IMG/VR virus record: IMGVR_UViG_3300044693_000272
DNA from: a virus
Lineage: Duplodnaviria; Heunggongvirae; Uroviricota; Caudoviricetes
Direction: 5' to 3' (one strand)
DNA length: 64,000 nt
The translations under genes and the position numbers were made by a program. Below, piece by piece: positions 1,289 to 48,874 of this stretch. Every line of letters starts with the position of its first letter. Position 1 is the first letter of the stretch. The notes below the pieces were generated by a model that made no database searches, was not told the origin of the DNA, and was given only the letters and a program-made list of their open reading frames with translations.

Positions 1289-1858
1289 TTACTTGATGTC
1301 AACATAACCACGAAAAGTTAAGCTGATTCTCGGTGGACAACTGGCCCCACGATCGCTCTTCGGAATTCGGTGCATATGCGTATCCTGCATTCCAGGATGC
1401 ATCAAACACAAACTTCCGTTCTGGAGTTTGACTCTTGTCACTTTCTTGGTGTCATCGTTCGGACGAAACAGAATGTCACGCTCTGCACCCAAGCTGATGA
1501 TAGCAATGCTACGAGTGTCATCCATTTCAGGACTATCATCGGCATGCCAACCCAGGTGATCCAAACCGTGATCGTATCCATTCAAGAAAACGACTTCATA
1601 CTGCTCGCTTGCATACAATGCAAGGTCTTCAGTCATCTTGGTAATAAGTGGATGCCATGGCTGCGAACAATATGTGCGGATGCCCCGGCCAGAACCATAC
1701 GTGTACGGTTCGCCTGAACGGCTACAATAGTATTCTCGACGTGGCACATTTTCATGTCGTACCCAATCAAGCTCATTCCAAAGCATCTTGAATACTTCGT
1801 CTGGGTTCGAAATCCAGTTCGGTACATAGCTGATTGGTACGCCGTCAAATGCATCCAT
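1289..1858 (-). CDS. AlkB-family 2OG-Fe(II) dioxygenase (ALKBH2/3-like)
   Basis: PRREYY, LNGY, GWHADD (HxD), HRIPK, RISLTFR motifs. Confidence 0.9.
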   Translation of the reverse strand: MDAFDGVPISYVPNWISNPDEVFKMLWNELDWVRHENVPRREYYCSRSGEPYTYGSGRGIRTYCSQPWHPLITKMTEDLALYASEQYEVVFLNGYDHGLDHLGWHADDSPEMDDTRSIAIISLGAERDILFRPNDDTKKVTRVKLQNGSLCLMHPGMQDTHMHRIPKSDRGASCPPRISLTFRGYVDIK

Positions 1859-2370
1859 TATTCACTCCTTTTACGCAACATCAACCTCGTGTTCGAAGCG
1901 TTGACGTTGAATTCGTCACCCTCGCAGATGATAGCGTACCTGTTAACATCAAACAAGTAGCATTCGTAATCTTTGCTGAGTTTCCTCCAAAGACCGTTGC
2001 TTGCATGCGACTGGTTGTTTCCGGACACGAGAGTATAACCGTTGTTCAGTATCCAGCGATAGATTGATTCAACGTAACCATTACCACGCTGCTCTTTAAC
2101 GGTGAACGAATGTGGTTCGAAAACTTTCTTATACTTACCGTATCTTTTGGGAATCAATTCAACTATTCCCATGACCCGATCTCGCCAGTTACTTTCAGCA
2201 TTCATGAGCTCAGCATGTTCAATACTCACGTAGTATTCATAATTGGTTTTATGAACAACTAACTTGATGGTATCAAAGTTGGTATCGATGATCGTTCTTT
2301 TCCTAATCCAACTATCGTTAACCATGCTACGAAAATCAGTAGCGCCATCACTAAATGAATCAACAATCAT
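1858..2370 (-). CDS. GNAT-fold-like hypothetical protein
   Basis: QRGNGY..SIY and QSHASNGLWRKL resemble acetyl-CoA-binding motif A. Confidence 0.5.
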   Translation of the reverse strand: MIVDSFSDGATDFRSMVNDSWIRKRTIIDTNFDTIKLVVHKTNYEYYVSIEHAELMNAESNWRDRVMGIVELIPKRYGKYKKVFEPHSFTVKEQRGNGYVESIYRWILNNGYTLVSGNNQSHASNGLWRKLSKDYECYLFDVNRYAIICEGDEFNVNASNTRLMLRKRSE

Positions 2371-14690: not shown

Positions 14691-14812
14691 TGGTGCCGGG
14701 GGCGGGAGTCGAACCCGCACTTCACCACCGTGGCCTTTGGTGGGTCTGCGTTGTCTAGAATACGCACACATGGCTTTCTGGCCATGGCCTCTACCTATTG
14801 GGCTACCCCGAC
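14691..14812 (-). ncRNA. enlarged tRNA-like RNA (122 nt) with three hairpins between D and T arms
   Basis: acceptor GTCGGGG/CCCCGGC-A-CCA, Leu-like D arm, GGTTCGACTCC T arm. Confidence 0.75.
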
Positions 14813-28417: not shown

Positions 28418-28536
28418 TGGTTGGGCCGCCAGGAATTGAACCTAGACTTCGTCCTTGTGCATGGATGAATTGAGTGCTGAACGGATCCTTATCAGGATCA
28501 CCTTCTTTACGCGTGCTACCGTTACACTACAGCCCA
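28418..28536 (-). ncRNA. tRNA-shaped RNA with CAGCA helix module inserted in the anticodon arm
   Basis: intact acceptor/D/T arms and CCA; CGT-AAAGAAGGT-GATCCT-gata-AGGATC-CGTTCAGCAC..CC-atgcacaa-GGACG. Confidence 0.75.
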
Positions 28537-32001: not shown

Positions 32002-32228
32002 TGGTGGATCGGACGGGAATTGAACCCGCGTAGTTTCCGCTTACCTGGGCATTACTCCAGGCCCACACATAACTTGGAAACGCGCTTCCCTTGCTGTTTA
32101 GATGCCACCTCTTTCGAGGCCGCTATAGGTGCTTCTGCAACCGTGCGTTATGTGTGACTTGCGAATGGAACCCGTTTTACCGGATCTCCTTTCATTTTAG
32201 GAGTGCTTTTCCTCTCAGCCACCGACCC
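32002..32228 (-). ncRNA. 227-nt tRNA-like RNA with Ala identity (G3.U70, A73) and large structured insert
   Basis: GGGTCGG/CCGATCC-A-CCA, D arm, GCGGGTTCAATTCCCGT T arm, 10-bp CACACATAAC/GTTATGTGTG, GAAA-capped helix followed by AACAGCAA. Confidence 0.75.
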
Positions 32229-32271
32229 ATAACCATATGATTACGTCATTTGCAGCATCAGTCAAGACAAA

Positions 32272-32685
32272 TTACAGTTCTTTCAACATCAAAGGGCCGC
32301 CGCCCGTTTGATGAAGCACTGCAAAACCATTCTTTGCATACCACTGCACAAGATCAAAACCTTCAGCTTGTGATTCAGCAGTATCGGCTATCAACAAAAT
32401 AGCCTTTGCATCTTCATATCCAACGTCGTCTATAAAACGACCAAGTAGGAAATTTCCGTAGCCTTGACCTTTGAATTCATCGTATACGTTGACATTATTC
32501 AACATTGCAATGCGCGGATACTTTGCACGAATTTCGGCGATCAACGCGTCATTATCAATACCATGCTTTGAAAACCAATTAACTATCTGGACAGCATTGC
32601 TATTTACAACGTAGCCTTCAACTGTACCTTCATCTTCTTGAAGGTTTACCACAACAGGTCGATCATACAAACTATCAGCTTTCAT
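32272..32685 (-). CDS. GNAT acetyltransferase
   Basis: NVNV.DEFKGQGYG..LL, L.QWY.K.GF. Confidence 0.8.
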   Translation of the reverse strand: MKADSLYDRPVVVNLQEDEGTVEGYVVNSNAVQIVNWFSKHGIDNDALIAEIRAKYPRIAMLNNVNVYDEFKGQGYGNFLLGRFIDDVGYEDAKAILLIADTAESQAEGFDLVQWYAKNGFAVLHQTGGGPLMLKEL

Positions 32686-33237: not shown

Positions 33238-33300
33238 TGGATAGCTTTTTAACGAGTCAAATTAACGGTTTGATGTTTTTAAGTTTGCTGCAACTATCCA
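33238..33300 (-). ncRNA. minimal Y-RNA-like stem element
   Basis: TGGATAG-TTGCAGCAAA..AAAAAG-CTATCCA. Confidence 0.65.
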
Positions 33301-33308
33301 AAACTGAC

Positions 33309-33359
33309 TGGAAGCACATGGTCATGTTGGAAAATGAATGTGATTGCTGTAGGCTTCCA
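33309..33359 (-). ncRNA. minimal Y-RNA-like stem element
   Basis: TGGAAGC-CTACAGCAAT..ATGT-GCTTCCA. Confidence 0.65.
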
Positions 33360-33380
33360 AAAACTGGGTCTAAAATGAAT

Positions 33381-33473
33381 GTGTTTTGCTCCGCGTGTGA
33401 GGATCGAACTCACCTAGCCACTGATTAACAGTCAGGCCCATGCACCAAGCTCGGGTTTCGCGGAGCAAAACAC
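33381..33473 (-). tRNA. trnN: tRNA-Asn(GTT) with 15-bp extended acceptor stem, no CCA
   Basis: loop CTGTTAA; GTGTTTTGCTCCGCG/CGCGGAGCAAAACAC perfect inverted repeat. Confidence 0.8.
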
Positions 33474-33520
33474 ACTCTAAATCATATAGCTCTACCGCTG
33501 AGCTACATCGGAACAGAAAC

Positions 33521-34054
33521 TTATGCTACAAGCCCTAGAGCCTGCAAACCAGCCTCATGGTTAGCTTGCGTTGCTGCCAGTGCTACTGGACTAGACAATT
33601 CGCTAAAAGCGCGCTCATGCCATTCTTCGTCCTTCAAAATACGTTCAAACACACTACGAATATCAGCAGGTGCTTGCTCATCAGCTGCGATAACACGGAT
33701 CCGTTCAAGTCGCATACCTTCAGCATGCGCTGCTACTGCTGATCCGGTTTCGAAATCTGTGATACCATGCAACGTTTCTTTCCAATAACGTTGCTCTGCT
33801 TGATCAATCTGACCTGCATCAACTTCAATACCACGCGAGAGGAGCAATTGCTCAACCCATTCAGCATGCTGGCGTTCTTGTGCTGCAATCGCATTCAACA
33901 CCTTTACTTGATGTTGATCGCTTGCATATTGCTCTGCAAACCGTACAATGCGATTTGAGGCTGTTACTTCACCACGCCATTGCTTCAGCAACCAATCTTT
34001 TAAAAGTGTTTCATCTGCTTTAACTGCTTGCCACCATGTTTCAGAAGTTTTCAT
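33521..34054 (-). CDS. ferritin-like (di-iron four-helix) protein
   Basis: W.GE..A, QE.QH, HAE.MRL, DEEWH (two ExxH motifs). Confidence 0.85.
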   Translation of the reverse strand: MKTSETWWQAVKADETLLKDWLLKQWRGEVTASNRIVRFAEQYASDQHQVKVLNAIAAQERQHAEWVEQLLLSRGIEVDAGQIDQAEQRYWKETLHGITDFETGSAVAAHAEGMRLERIRVIAADEQAPADIRSVFERILKDEEWHERAFSELSSPVALAATQANHEAGLQALGLVA

Positions 34055-39398: not shown

Positions 39399-39472
39399 TG
39401 GCTGAGGGACTAGGGCTCGAACCTAGGCTACATGAGTCAAAGTCATGGGTGCTACCATTACACTATCCCCCA
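39399..39472 (-). tRNA. trnQ: tRNA-Gln(TTG)
   Basis: loop CTTTGAC, U1-A72, CCA. Confidence 0.95.
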
Positions 39473-48738: not shown

Positions 48739-48874
48739 AGGATCCTATTTTCACATTGTCTAGCGCGTCTACCAATTTCGCCATAATCCACTTTTAAGGG
48801 TGGATCAGAAGGACTCGAACCTTCACGTCTTGCGACACCAGATTCCTTAGCCTATAGATTGCTGTAAGGATCCT
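48739..48874 (-). ncRNA. YrlA-like circularly permuted tRNA-Leu mimic
   Basis: AGGATCCT-TACAGCAAT, Leu 3' half (variable and T arm), TAAAA linker, Leu 5' half (GTGGATTATGGCGAAATTGGTAGACGCGCTAGAC), AAAAT-AGGATCCT. Confidence 0.8.

What the first reader, a model, noticed from the sequence alone, without database searches (positions are those of the whole stretch)
32002..32228. 227-nt G3.U70 tRNA-like RNA: tmRNA-like ends, no ssrA tag, CAGCAA module inside
Seen: acceptor GGGTCGG/CCGATCC with G3.U70 and A73-CCA, a D arm and a canonical T arm. About 150 nt of nested helices replace the anticodon arm, including a perfect 10-bp CACACATAAC/GTTATGTGTG helix and a GAAA-capped helix followed by AACAGCAA. 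Established: G3.U70/A73 is the AlaRS identity set, also used by tmRNA. I could find no ANDEN..AA-type tag frame, and the RNA is shorter than typical tmRNA. Inference: an alanylatable scaffold RNA that may link the Y-like module to the translation machinery.
Basis: partly seen in the sequence, partly recalled or inferred. Interest (0 to 1): 0.76.

Follow-up and report, generated by a model that had tools for sequence, protein, structure and literature searches.

The report
Alanine-type tRNA-shaped phage RNA, giant arm
This 227-base gene in a huge phage's tRNA cluster encodes a conserved, uncatalogued RNA with a complete tRNA body, alanine-charging signals and a large structured extra arm; it is not a tmRNA, and its function is unknown.

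Summary
Window 32002-32228 (minus strand) encodes a 227-nt RNA with a 7-bp acceptor stem (G3.U70, A73, encoded CCA), a D arm and a canonical T arm.

One correction: the anticodon arm is not replaced. A 5-bp stem with an 8-nt A-rich loop sits in that position. The roughly 155-nt extra domain lies where the variable arm belongs.

It belongs to a real RNA family:
- About 14 lineages, in tRNA arrays of unrelated phages (including cultured Ralstonia phage RSP15, unannotated there) and of Variovorax megaplasmids.
- 92.7% of pair cells are paired, against 38-48% in slid controls, and 47 of 61 pairs show double changes.
- Two strands of the arm are invariant in every member found.

It is not a tmRNA. 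The Rfam tmRNA model gives 18 bits (threshold 47), there is no conserved tag frame, SmpB is absent from carriers, and one carrier also has a canonical tmRNA. It is not an intron-bearing tRNA either. A Y-RNA/Ro60 link was not supported by my tests.

G3.U70 with A73 is kept in 10 of 14 lineages, so alanylation by the host enzyme is likely for this copy. Carriers share almost no proteins, so the RNA must work with host machinery. The function of the arm is unknown.

The scan had already noted this family on other DNA.

The parts
32002..32228 (-). Whole RNA gene, 227 nt (RNA position p = 32229 minus the window coordinate).
   Evidence: Covariance model R1 scores it 263.9 bits, and it is the only full-length match in the window.
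32222..32228 (-). Acceptor stem, 5' strand GGGUCGG (positions 1-7).
   Evidence: All 7 pairs show compensatory changes across the family, and 98% of cells are paired.
32002..32012 (-). Acceptor stem 3' strand CCGAUCC (positions 217-223, with U70 opposite G3), discriminator A73 and an encoded CCA.
   Evidence: 45 of the window's 49 tRNAs also encode CCA. G3.U70 is otherwise found only in tRNA-Ala(UGC) and tRNA-Gln(UUG).
32205..32219 (-). D arm (positions 10-24): a 3-bp stem GCU/AGC whose loop carries G18G19, resembling class-II tRNAs.
   Evidence: All 3 pairs covary. The best non-family matches of R1 are tRNA-Tyr (L120, 36.3 bits) and tRNA-Ser (window, 36.2 bits), both class-II tRNAs.
32186..32203 (-). 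Arm in the anticodon position (positions 26-43): stem CUCCU/AGGAG with the 8-nt A-rich loop AAAAUGAA. There is no U33 and no 7-nt loop.
   Evidence: The stem covaries. Loops are 8-14 nt in homologues and share the pattern AAnAAYG.
32172..32183 (-). Short hairpin CCG-GUAAAA-CGG (positions 46-57) with a conserved hexaloop.
   Evidence: All 3 pairs covary and 100% of cells are paired. The loop is GUAAAA in nearly all lineages.
32164..32171 (-). Helix Pb, 5' strand (positions 58-65). Pb is the base of the giant arm.
   Evidence: It pairs with 32033-32042. In homologues it is 8-10 bp and covaries, for example GGCCAGUC/GAUUGGCC in RSP15.
32158..32163 (-). Junction element CGCAAG (positions 66-71): a minimal GNRA-capped hairpin.
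   Evidence: It reads CGAAAG in L044 and CCA-GCAA-UGG in L121, so the junction is effectively four-way.
32147..32157 (-). Helix Pc, 5' strand UCACACAUAAC (positions 72-82).
   Evidence: It pairs with 32063-32073. All 11 pairs show double changes.
32119..32132 (-). Invariant block A, GCACCUAUAGCGGC (positions 97-110).
   Evidence: It is identical in all members found. The search patterns required part of it, so its invariance is partly a result of how members were found.
32104..32123 (-). Hairpin Pf (positions 106-125): GC-G-GCCUC GAAA GAGGU-G-GC.
   Evidence: The outer part is variable and covaries, including GCU/AGC in L123.
32083..32099 (-). Invariant block B, AAACAGCAAGGGAAGCG (positions 130-146).
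   Evidence: Most lineages read AAACAAGCAAGGGAAGCG.
32076..32090 (-). Hairpin Ph, GGGAA-GCGCG-UUUCC (positions 139-153).
   Evidence: It shows no compensatory changes (3 of its 5 pairs depart only through unpaired cells) and is absent in some lineages (L119, L118, L125), so support for it is weak.
32063..32073 (-). Helix Pc, 3' strand GUUAUGUGUGG (positions 156-166).
32043..32062 (-). Hairpin Pd (positions 167-186) with the conserved loop AGUAAUGC.
   Evidence: All 6 pairs covary. The loop is shared by the window, L044, L113, L120 and RSP15.
32033..32042 (-). Helix Pb, 3' strand (positions 187-196).
32013..32029 (-). T arm GCGGG-UUCAAUU-CCCGU (positions 200-216).
   Evidence: 100% of cells are paired and 4 of 5 pairs covary. 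The T loop is canonical.
32237..32265 (-). Weak sigma-70-like promoter match (TTGACT, 17 nt, AATCAT) ending 8 nt before the RNA's first base.
   Evidence: The number of such sites in the region equals the chance expectation, so this is only a hint.

Best explanation
This is one member of an uncatalogued family of tRNA-shaped non-coding RNAs. The family is carried, one copy per genome, in the tRNA gene arrays of unrelated large phages and of Variovorax megaplasmids.

Shown:
- The RNA folds into a complete tRNA body: acceptor, D arm, a stem in the anticodon position with an oversized A-rich loop that cannot decode, and a T arm.
- In the variable-arm position it carries a ~155-nt domain. This is a GUAAAA-capped hairpin followed by a long helix (Pb) that opens into a junction with a GNRA mini-hairpin.
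- A second long helix (Pc) encloses two invariant strands, UAUAGCG and AAACA(A)GCAAGGGAAGCG. A hairpin with the loop AGUAAUGC completes the junction.

Inferred:
- It is transcribed with the tRNA array and cut out by RNase P and the 3'-processing enzymes like its neighbours.
- This copy, like most members, is charged with alanine by the host AlaRS through G3.U70/A73.
- The conserved arm, not a codon-reading loop, is the working part. It acts on a component that all hosts share, most likely in the translation or tRNA-handling machinery.

It does not template a peptide tag. Which host component the arm binds is not known.
For: The family and its structure:
- Homologues were found by pattern scans and BLAST.
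- R1 scores them 35-264 bits, whereas ordinary tRNAs stay at or below about 37 bits.
- 92.7% of pair cells are paired, against 38-48% when partners are slid. 47 of 61 pairs show double changes, and 0 of 500 shuffles reach the observed values.

tRNA context:
- Every member lies on the tRNA strand within or next to a tRNA array.
- There is one copy per genome.

Alanine identity:
- G3.U70 plus A73 occurs in 10 of 14 lineages, with stem positions 4-7 differing between lineages.
- CCA is encoded here, as in 45 of 49 neighbouring tRNAs. The window's tRNA-Ala has the same GGG...UCC-A-CCA ends.

Dependence on the host:
- The complete 98-kb phage G004 shares 0-1 proteins (tblastn E<1e-5) with the other carriers, yet its RNA is 76% identical to this one.
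- SmpB, AlaRS and TROVE were found in 0 of 5 carrier phage records.

Not a tag template:
- No frame is closed by a stop codon in all lineages. The C-termini are unrelated, and the 'codons' of the invariant block are fixed even at wobble positions.
Against: - Four lineages (RSP15, the L051 group, L118, L125) lack G3.U70 yet keep the invariant arm. Alanylation therefore cannot be essential to the arm's function everywhere.
- The invariance of blocks A and B is partly an ascertainment effect, because the search patterns required them.
- No target of the arm was identified.
- Hairpins Pe and Ph rest on invariant or non-covarying pairs.
Confidence: 0.5

Rival explanations
1. It is an uncharged decoy or sponge. 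The tRNA body serves only as a handle for processing and stability (RNase P, CCA addition, nuclease resistance). The arm, or the whole tRNA-like shape, titrates a host factor such as a tRNA-targeting defence nuclease or a tRNA-binding enzyme. Under this view G3.U70 is an ancestral leftover, or a binding signal rather than a charging signal.
For: - The invariant nucleotides lie in the arm, not in the tRNA body.
- Four lineages have other 3:70 pairs and no encoded CCA, or other discriminator contexts.
- The RNA moves between unrelated phages as a self-contained gene.
- It sits in tRNA arrays, which published work links to escape from tRNA-targeting defences (my own knowledge, not tested here).
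Against: - G1-C72/G2-C71/G3.U70/A73 is retained in most lineages, across 37-63% GC, while the rest of the stem changes freely. A pure handle does not predict this.
- No candidate target was found.
Confidence: 0.2
2. It is a Y-RNA-type partner of a Ro60/Rsr ring protein. It would be a tRNA mimic with its ends at the acceptor stem, where YrlA has its ends in the protein-binding stem. The giant arm would be the protein-docking module.
For: - YrlA RNAs combine a tRNA-like module with a short GNCGAAN0-1G motif next to the terminal stem, and they occur in phages (PMC4201824).
- Here a similar string (GUCGAAAG in L044, UUCGCAAG in the window) directly follows the arm's basal helix.
- Earlier unchecked notes of this scan place relatives beside rsr/rtcB operons.
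Against: - No match to Rfam YrlA even at E<=10.
- TROVE (PF05731) was found in 0 of 5 carrier phage records and 0 of 1 carrier megaplasmid, and in none of the ten window ORFs of 328-624 aa scanned with Pfam.
- RtcB was found in 1 of 5.
- In 10 TROVE-bearing Bacillota genomes, R1 found only ordinary tRNAs.
- The motif reads better as a covarying GNRA mini-hairpin (CCA-GCAA-UGG in L121).
- Host-encoded Rsr could not be checked.
Confidence: 0.13
3. It is a reduced, tag-less tmRNA. After alanylation it would enter stalled ribosomes with SmpB and release them without adding a degradation tag.
For: - The GGG...UCC-ACCA end with G3.U70 matches tmRNA, and the only Rfam signal is a weak tmRNA hit on the ends.
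- An A-rich strand precedes an invariant GCA, as it does before tmRNA resume codons (the comparison is from my own knowledge).
- In the one carrier that has its own canonical tmRNA, this RNA has lost G3.U70.
Against: - 18.3 bits against a gathering score of 47; ARAGORN finds no tmRNA.
- It has a true D stem and an anticodon-position arm, both of which tmRNA lacks.
- In the frame that starts at the invariant GCA, 3 of 13 lineages have no stop before the 3' end, and no frame is closed by a stop in both the window and L113. The peptide ends are unrelated.
- SmpB is in 0 of 5 carrier records.
- It coexists with a canonical tmRNA 0.9 kb away in G002.
Confidence: 0.1
4. It is an intron-containing tRNA-Ala (or other tRNA) whose ~134-nt intron is removed to give a decoding tRNA.
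For: With introns allowed, ARAGORN calls the window copy tRNA-Ala(GGC) with a 134-nt intron.
Against: - The same program gives homologues unrelated anticodons (Ile, Phe, Arg, Ser, Tyr, Thr, Pyl) and different intron positions, or finds nothing.
- The most conserved nucleotides lie inside the supposed intron.
- No group I or other intron family matches at E<=10.
- The stem in the anticodon position is intact but has an 8-14-nt loop.
Confidence: 0.03

Closest known systems
tmRNA (SsrA), Rfam RF00023
   Same: - Alanine identity at the acceptor end (G3.U70, A73, CCA) and a canonical T arm.
- A large structured domain inserted between the 5' part and the T arm.
- Encoded in phage tRNA arrays; a canonical tmRNA lies in the same array in G002.
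   Different: - It has a real D stem and a stem-loop in the anticodon position.
- No pseudoknot ring was recognised, and there is no conserved open reading frame or stop codon.
- The model score is far below threshold.
- SmpB does not co-occur.
- Several members lack G3.U70.
YrlA and other bacterial or phage Y RNAs, Rfam RF02553 (Chen et al. 2014, PMC4201824)
   Same: [quoted passage not shown]
- Expected to be a substrate for RNase P and CCA addition.
- Found in phages.
- A short G-N-C-G-A-A-like string lies next to a terminal helix.
   Different: - The topology is inverted. Here the free ends are at the acceptor stem and the extra module sits in the variable-arm position; in YrlA the ends lie in the Ro-binding stem and the acceptor is closed.
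- No match to the model.
- No TROVE gene in carriers.
- The alanine identity set is conserved here.
Class-II tRNAs (Leu, Ser, Tyr) with long variable arms
   Same: - A D arm with a 3-bp stem and a GAGNGG-type loop.
- The extra helix emerges between the anticodon-position stem and the T arm.
- The nearest non-family matches of the family model are tRNA-Ser and tRNA-Tyr.
   Different: - The arm is ~155 nt with a multi-helix junction, compared with 10-25 nt in class-II tRNAs.
- There is no 7-nt anticodon loop.
- The acceptor identity is that of alanine.
GOLLD and ROOL ornate RNAs of phages (PMC12286853)
   Same: - Large conserved structured RNAs of unknown function.
- Typically encoded near tRNA genes in phages and prophages.
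- Rich in tetraloops and junctions.
   Different: - They are much larger (about 600-800 nt, a figure from my own knowledge, not from a tool result) and are not built on a tRNA body.
- No sequence or model match.
- Oligomerisation was not tested here.

Membership tests
tmRNA (RF00023) | A match to the family covariance model at or above its gathering score. | tested here: not met
   18.3 bits against 47, and only the acceptor and T arm align. RSP15's copy scores 20.6 bits. ARAGORN in tmRNA mode finds nothing.
tmRNA (RF00023) | An mRNA-like region with a resume codon, a conserved tag reading frame and a stop codon. | tested here: not met
   In the frame starting at the invariant GCA, 3 of 13 lineages have no stop before the 3' end. 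No frame is closed by a stop in both the window and L113. The C-termini are unrelated and wobble positions are invariant.
tmRNA (RF00023) | A tRNA-like domain without a D stem or anticodon arm, with a pseudoknot ring. | tested here: not met
   A covarying D stem and a covarying anticodon-position stem are present. Pseudoknots were not searched for systematically.
tmRNA (RF00023) | Alanine identity (G3.U70, A73). | tested here: met
   Present in the window copy and in 10 of 14 lineages.
tmRNA (RF00023) | Works with SmpB. | tested here: inconclusive
   SmpB is in 0 of 5 carrier phage records. Host SmpB could still serve. The binding itself cannot be tested with these tools.
YrlA / Y RNA (RF02553) | A match to the family model. 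| tested here: not met
   No match at E<=10.
YrlA / Y RNA (RF02553) | Encoded next to, or in the same genome as, a Ro60/Rsr (TROVE) gene. | tested here: not met
   TROVE is in 0 of 5 carrier phage records and 0 of 1 megaplasmid. None of the ten window ORFs of 328-624 aa scanned matched TROVE. Host chromosomes were not searchable.
YrlA / Y RNA (RF02553) | 5' and 3' ends form the protein-binding stem and the tRNA-like acceptor is closed. | tested here: not met
   The ends are at the acceptor stem and carry an encoded CCA.
YrlA / Y RNA (RF02553) | The GNCGAAN0-1G motif beside the terminal stem (PMC4201824). | tested here: inconclusive
   L044 matches exactly (GUCGAAAG). The window has UUCGCAAG. 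Other lineages have a GNRA mini-hairpin with a covarying stem.
Decoding tRNA (RF00005), with or without an intron | A 7-nt anticodon loop with U33, and an anticodon conserved among orthologues. | tested here: not met
   Loops are 8-14 nt and lack U33. The anticodons that ARAGORN calls in intron mode differ in every homologue.
Decoding tRNA (RF00005), with or without an intron | Acceptor, D and T arms with elbow nucleotides (G18G19, T-loop UUCRANY). | tested here: met

The most novel reading that the evidence does not exclude
A third architecture of aminoacylated tRNA mimic, alongside tRNA and tmRNA. It would be a host-AlaRS-charged RNA whose own anticodon-position arm stands where SmpB stands on tmRNA. 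Its ornate ~155-nt arm would dock on the ribosome or another universal translation component. This would let phages and megaplasmids rescue, stall or reprogram host ribosomes without any dedicated protein and without a peptide tag.
Probability: 0.15. Interest if true: 0.92.

Novelty: new variant of a known kind. Interest (0 to 1): 0.72.

Why it matters
tRNA mimics that carry a second functional domain are rare and have been informative: tmRNA for ribosome rescue, YrlA for RNA quality control.

This family is a further design:
- It has a full tRNA body with alanine-charging signals and a large, strongly conserved, junction-rich arm.
- It has spread among phages that share no proteins, and onto bacterial megaplasmids.
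- It therefore confers something useful through host machinery alone.

It is missed by tRNAscan/ARAGORN-type annotation and is absent from Rfam 15. It is left unannotated even in a cultured phage (RSP15) and in the gene table PLSDB gives for the Variovorax plasmids, which omits RNA genes.

Two culturable systems make it directly testable. If the RNA is charged and acts on the ribosome, it would add a new player to phage control of host translation. If not, it is still a compact natural tRNA scaffold displaying a folded RNA domain.

Tried and rejected
- **Classical tmRNA:** rejected.
- **Intron-bearing tRNA:** rejected, because the anticodons are inconsistent and the 'intron' is the most conserved part.
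- **Known Rfam family:** none of the 4227 families matched at gathering thresholds over the window. At E<=10 over the locus, only the weak tmRNA end match had an E-value well below 1; the five other listed matches had E-values of 0.09 to 9 and scores far under their gathering scores.
- **CAGCAA as a shared Y-like module:** rejected as evidence. There are 43 copies on this strand, and it is not conserved in the family.
- **A partner protein encoded by the carriers:**
  - SmpB, AlaRS and TROVE were found in none of five records.
  - The RF-1 domain was found in 1 of 5, the CCA-adding enzyme in 2 of 5 and RtcB in 1 of 5.
  - An all-against-all tblastn showed that G004 shares no protein family with the others.
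- **Members beside rsr in bacteria:** I could only reach one phylum. In ten TROVE-bearing Bacillota genomes the model finds only ordinary tRNAs. The earlier notes on this point therefore remain unverified by me.
- **Similarity to E. coli rRNA, tRNA or tmRNA by blastn:** only a 31-nt match at the T-arm and 3' end, at E about 9.
- **Looser pattern scans for divergent members:**
  - These gave chance hits next to tRNAs (L218-L220).
  - They also gave one possible reduced relative, L217.
  - L128, in a Lachnospiraceae contig, is a chance match with no adjacent tRNA-like T arm or acceptor.
- **Literature:** six keyword searches found no description of this family.

Full report
**What is in the window**

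The window carries 49 tRNA genes, all on the minus strand. It comes from a virus-like record for which no whole genome is held. Earlier scan notes describe it as a roughly 520-kb phage.

- a 7-bp acceptor stem GGGUCGG/CCGAUCC with G3.U70, followed by A73 and an encoded CCA;
- a D arm (GCU/AGC, with G18G19 in the loop);
- a canonical T arm (GCGGG-UUCAAUU-CCCGU).

The 227-nt RNA folds at -83.1 kcal/mol with a z-score of -3.95, and 0 of 200 shuffles fold as well.

One part of the description needs correcting. A 5-bp stem CUCCU/AGGAG with an 8-nt loop AAAAUGAA stands in the anticodon-arm position. The extra ~155 nt therefore sit between that arm and the T arm, where a class-II tRNA has its variable arm.

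ARAGORN in default mode and Rfam at gathering thresholds report nothing here. With permissive thresholds, the only match with an E-value well below 1 is tmRNA at 18.3 bits (gathering score 47), and it aligns only the acceptor and T arm.

**A conserved family**

- BLAST against GenBank phages found one relative, in an unannotated gap of the tRNA region of Ralstonia phage RSP15.
- Two strands shared with RSP15 served as patterns: GCACCUAUAGCGGCC and GCAAGGGAAGCG. These scans recovered further copies in IMG/VR and metagenome contigs.
- BLAST against plasmids found a copy in ~0.8-Mb Variovorax megaplasmids, inside an array of 41 tRNA genes.
- This gives about 14 distinct lineages. All lie on the tRNA strand within or beside tRNA arrays. 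Contigs range from 98 kb to 572 kb, and GC content of the RNA ranges from 37% to 63%.
- A covariance model built from three members scores family members at 35-264 bits and ordinary tRNAs at about 37 bits or less.
- The model finds exactly one copy in the window and one in each of five phage records.
- The window's copy is 51-78% identical to the others.

**Structure**

I counted pairs on the model-guided alignment of 14 sequences:
- 92.7% of pair cells form standard pairs, against 38-48% when the 3' partners are slid by 1-3 columns.
- 47 of 61 pairs show changes on both sides.
- None of 500 column shuffles reaches any of the observed measures.

The alignment is fitted to the model, which favours the structure, but the margin is large. 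Helices with compensatory changes in nearly every pair are:
- the acceptor stem, the D stem and the anticodon-position stem;
- a short hairpin with a conserved GUAAAA loop;
- Pb, a long-range helix that forms the base of the big arm;
- Pd, often capped by AGUAAUGC;
- the T stem.

Between Pb and Pc lies CGCAAG. In other lineages it reads CGAAAG or CCA-GCAA-UGG, so it is a minimal GNRA-capped hairpin and the junction is effectively four-way.

Inside Pc lie a variable, covarying hairpin (GAAA-capped here) and two strands that are identical in every member found: UAUAGCG within block A, and AAACA(A)GCAAGGGAAGCG. Part of that invariance comes from how members were found.

The loop of the anticodon-position arm is 8-14 nt, has no U33, and shares the pattern AAnAAYG. 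It cannot read codons in the normal way.

**Not a tmRNA, not an intron-bearing tRNA**

I translated all three frames from the invariant block in 13 lineages.
- The frame that starts at the invariant GCA (A-R-E-A...) has no stop before the 3' end in three lineages.
- No frame has a stop in both the window and L113.
- Peptide ends are unrelated. None resembles the ...LAA-type ends that I know from tmRNA tags, such as the AEESYSYALAA tag of the canonical tmRNA in G002.
- The 'codons' of the invariant block are fixed even at wobble positions. This points to constraint on the RNA, not on a peptide.
- About 70% of random frames of this length would contain a stop by chance, so the observed 10 of 13 is uninformative.

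Other evidence:
- SmpB (PF01668) is absent from all five carrier phage records, four of them complete.
- The 306-kb phage G002 has a canonical tmRNA (189.9 bits, tag AEESYSYALAA) about 0.9 kb from its copy of this RNA in the same array. The two are therefore different genes.
- With introns allowed, ARAGORN calls the window copy tRNA-Ala(GGC) with a 134-nt intron. It gives the homologues Ile, Phe, Arg, Ser, Tyr, Thr or Pyl anticodons, or nothing. The supposed intron also holds the most conserved nucleotides.

**Alanine identity**

- Ten of 14 lineages have G3.U70 with A73. Nine of these have G1-C72 and G2-C71; the Variovorax copy has C1-G72.
- Stem positions 4-7 differ between lineages with compensatory changes.
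- Seven of the lineages extracted, and the Variovorax copy, encode CCA.
- In the window, 45 of 49 tRNAs encode CCA. G3.U70 occurs only in tRNA-Ala(UGC), whose ends GGGCUGU/ACGGUCC-A-CCA resemble this RNA's, and in tRNA-Gln(UUG), which has U1-A72 and G73.
- Established knowledge of AlaRS is that G3.U70 is the major determinant and suffices even in minihelices. This copy should therefore be a substrate.
- Four lineages (RSP15, the L051 group that includes G002, L118 and L125) have other 3:70 pairs but keep the arm. Alanylation therefore cannot be required for the arm's function everywhere.

**No carrier-encoded partner**

- AlaRS and TROVE/Ro60 are absent from all five carrier phage records. TROVE is also absent from the Variovorax megaplasmid.
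- An RF-1-domain protein is present in 1 of 5, a CCA-adding enzyme in 2 of 5 and RtcB in 1 of 5.
- I fetched the five phage records whole and compared all ORFs of 70 aa or more by tblastn. The complete 98-kb phage G004 shares 0-1 proteins (E<1e-5) with any other carrier, and nothing with two or more even at E<0.05 apart from one 28-bit match.
- Its RNA is nevertheless 76% identical to the window's.
- The gene has therefore moved between unrelated phages, and whatever it does must use components supplied by the host.

**The Y-RNA idea**

- That hexamer occurs 43 times on this strand.
- In those elements it directly follows a terminal helix (UUGGAUnnnUA-CAGCAA). Here it lies deep inside Pc.
- Most homologues have CAAGCAA.

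I do not count it as evidence.

A better lead is that YrlA RNAs carry GNCGAAN0-1G beside their terminal stem (PMC4201824). L044 has GUCGAAAG right after Pb. In other lineages, however, the same place is a covarying GNRA mini-hairpin.

Earlier notes of this scan say relatives sit at rsr/rtcB operons. With the reach I had, I could not reproduce this:
- Rfam YrlA does not match.
- Carriers lack TROVE.
- Ten TROVE-bearing Bacillota genomes contain no member.

Host chromosomes of the carriers could not be searched, so this rival stays open at low odds.

**Best reading**

Shown: this is a conserved, single-copy, tRNA-shaped RNA of tRNA arrays with a non-decoding anticodon-position loop and a junction-rich, partly invariant arm. 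It is distinct from tmRNA, YrlA and intron-bearing tRNAs.

Inferred: it is released by the tRNA processing enzymes. This copy is alanylated by host AlaRS. The arm is the effector and acts on a universal host component, most plausibly in translation or tRNA handling.

The target is unknown. I found no description in Rfam 15 or in six literature searches. The scan had already flagged the same family on other DNA.

Noticed in passing
window 33390-33512 (minus strand): An unannotated tRNA-like gene, starting GUUCCGAUGUAGCUCAGCGGUAGAGC, is interrupted by about 50 nt and flanked by a long complementary pair (GUGUGUUUUGCUCCGCG ... CGCGGAGCAAAACAC). ARAGORN does not call it.
   Followed up: no
window 28418-28536 and 14691-14812 (minus strand): These are two oversized tRNA-like genes of 119 and 122 nt. 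They match the family model only through their tRNA parts (28.9 and 26.2 bits). Rfam calls the second a tRNA at 33 bits. They are not members of this family.
   Followed up: partly
window 33238-33370, 44839, 45077, 48864, 48925, 49257 (minus strand): Small elements share the string UUGGAUnnnUA-CAGCAA at their 5' ends. These are the window's 'Y-like' RNAs from another finding. One of them, near 48864, contains a GUC-GCAA-GAC tetraloop hairpin.
   Followed up: partly
L001 2560-2900 (Ralstonia phage RSP15, NC_030948, about 95675-96015): A ~330-nt unannotated stretch sits directly upstream of RSP15's family member. It is closed by a 12-nt long-range complement (CUGUAUAUCCCC ... GGGGAUAUACAG). Rfam gives no match over its gathering score (best: sraA, 27.3 bits against 56, E 0.06, on the opposite strand). 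It may be another structured RNA.
   Followed up: partly
L129 1504-1848 (G002:C1:285825-286172): The 306-kb phage carries a canonical tmRNA (189.9 bits, tag AEESYSYALAA) inside its tRNA array. No smpB was found in that genome.
   Followed up: yes
window 32272-32685 and 33521-34054 (minus strand): The ORF directly upstream of the RNA is a weak GNAT acetyltransferase match (E 0.0036, below threshold). A nearby ORF in the array is rubrerythrin-like with a MiaE-like (tRNA hydroxylase) match at E 1e-4.
   Followed up: partly
L217 about 1800-1975 (minus strand): A ~170-nt tRNA-Leu-like RNA contains GCAAGGGAAGCG and a CAGUAAUG loop but lacks block A. It may be a reduced relative of the family. The model did not score it.
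   Followed up: partly
window 39399-39472 (minus strand): The phage tRNA-Gln(UUG) also has a G3.U70 pair, together with U1-A72 and G73.
   Followed up: no
L113 4456-4935 (minus strand): ARAGORN calls a permuted tmRNA here (tag ASLKCIVVP). The Rfam tmRNA model gave no match above threshold in that record, so this is probably a false call.
   Followed up: partly
L137 (Variovorax sp. WDL1 plasmid 2, NZ_LR594690, 62-80 kb): An ~816-kb megaplasmid carries an array of at least 41 tRNA genes interspersed with small hypothetical ORFs and an HNH endonuclease, much like a huge-phage tRNA island.
   Followed up: partly
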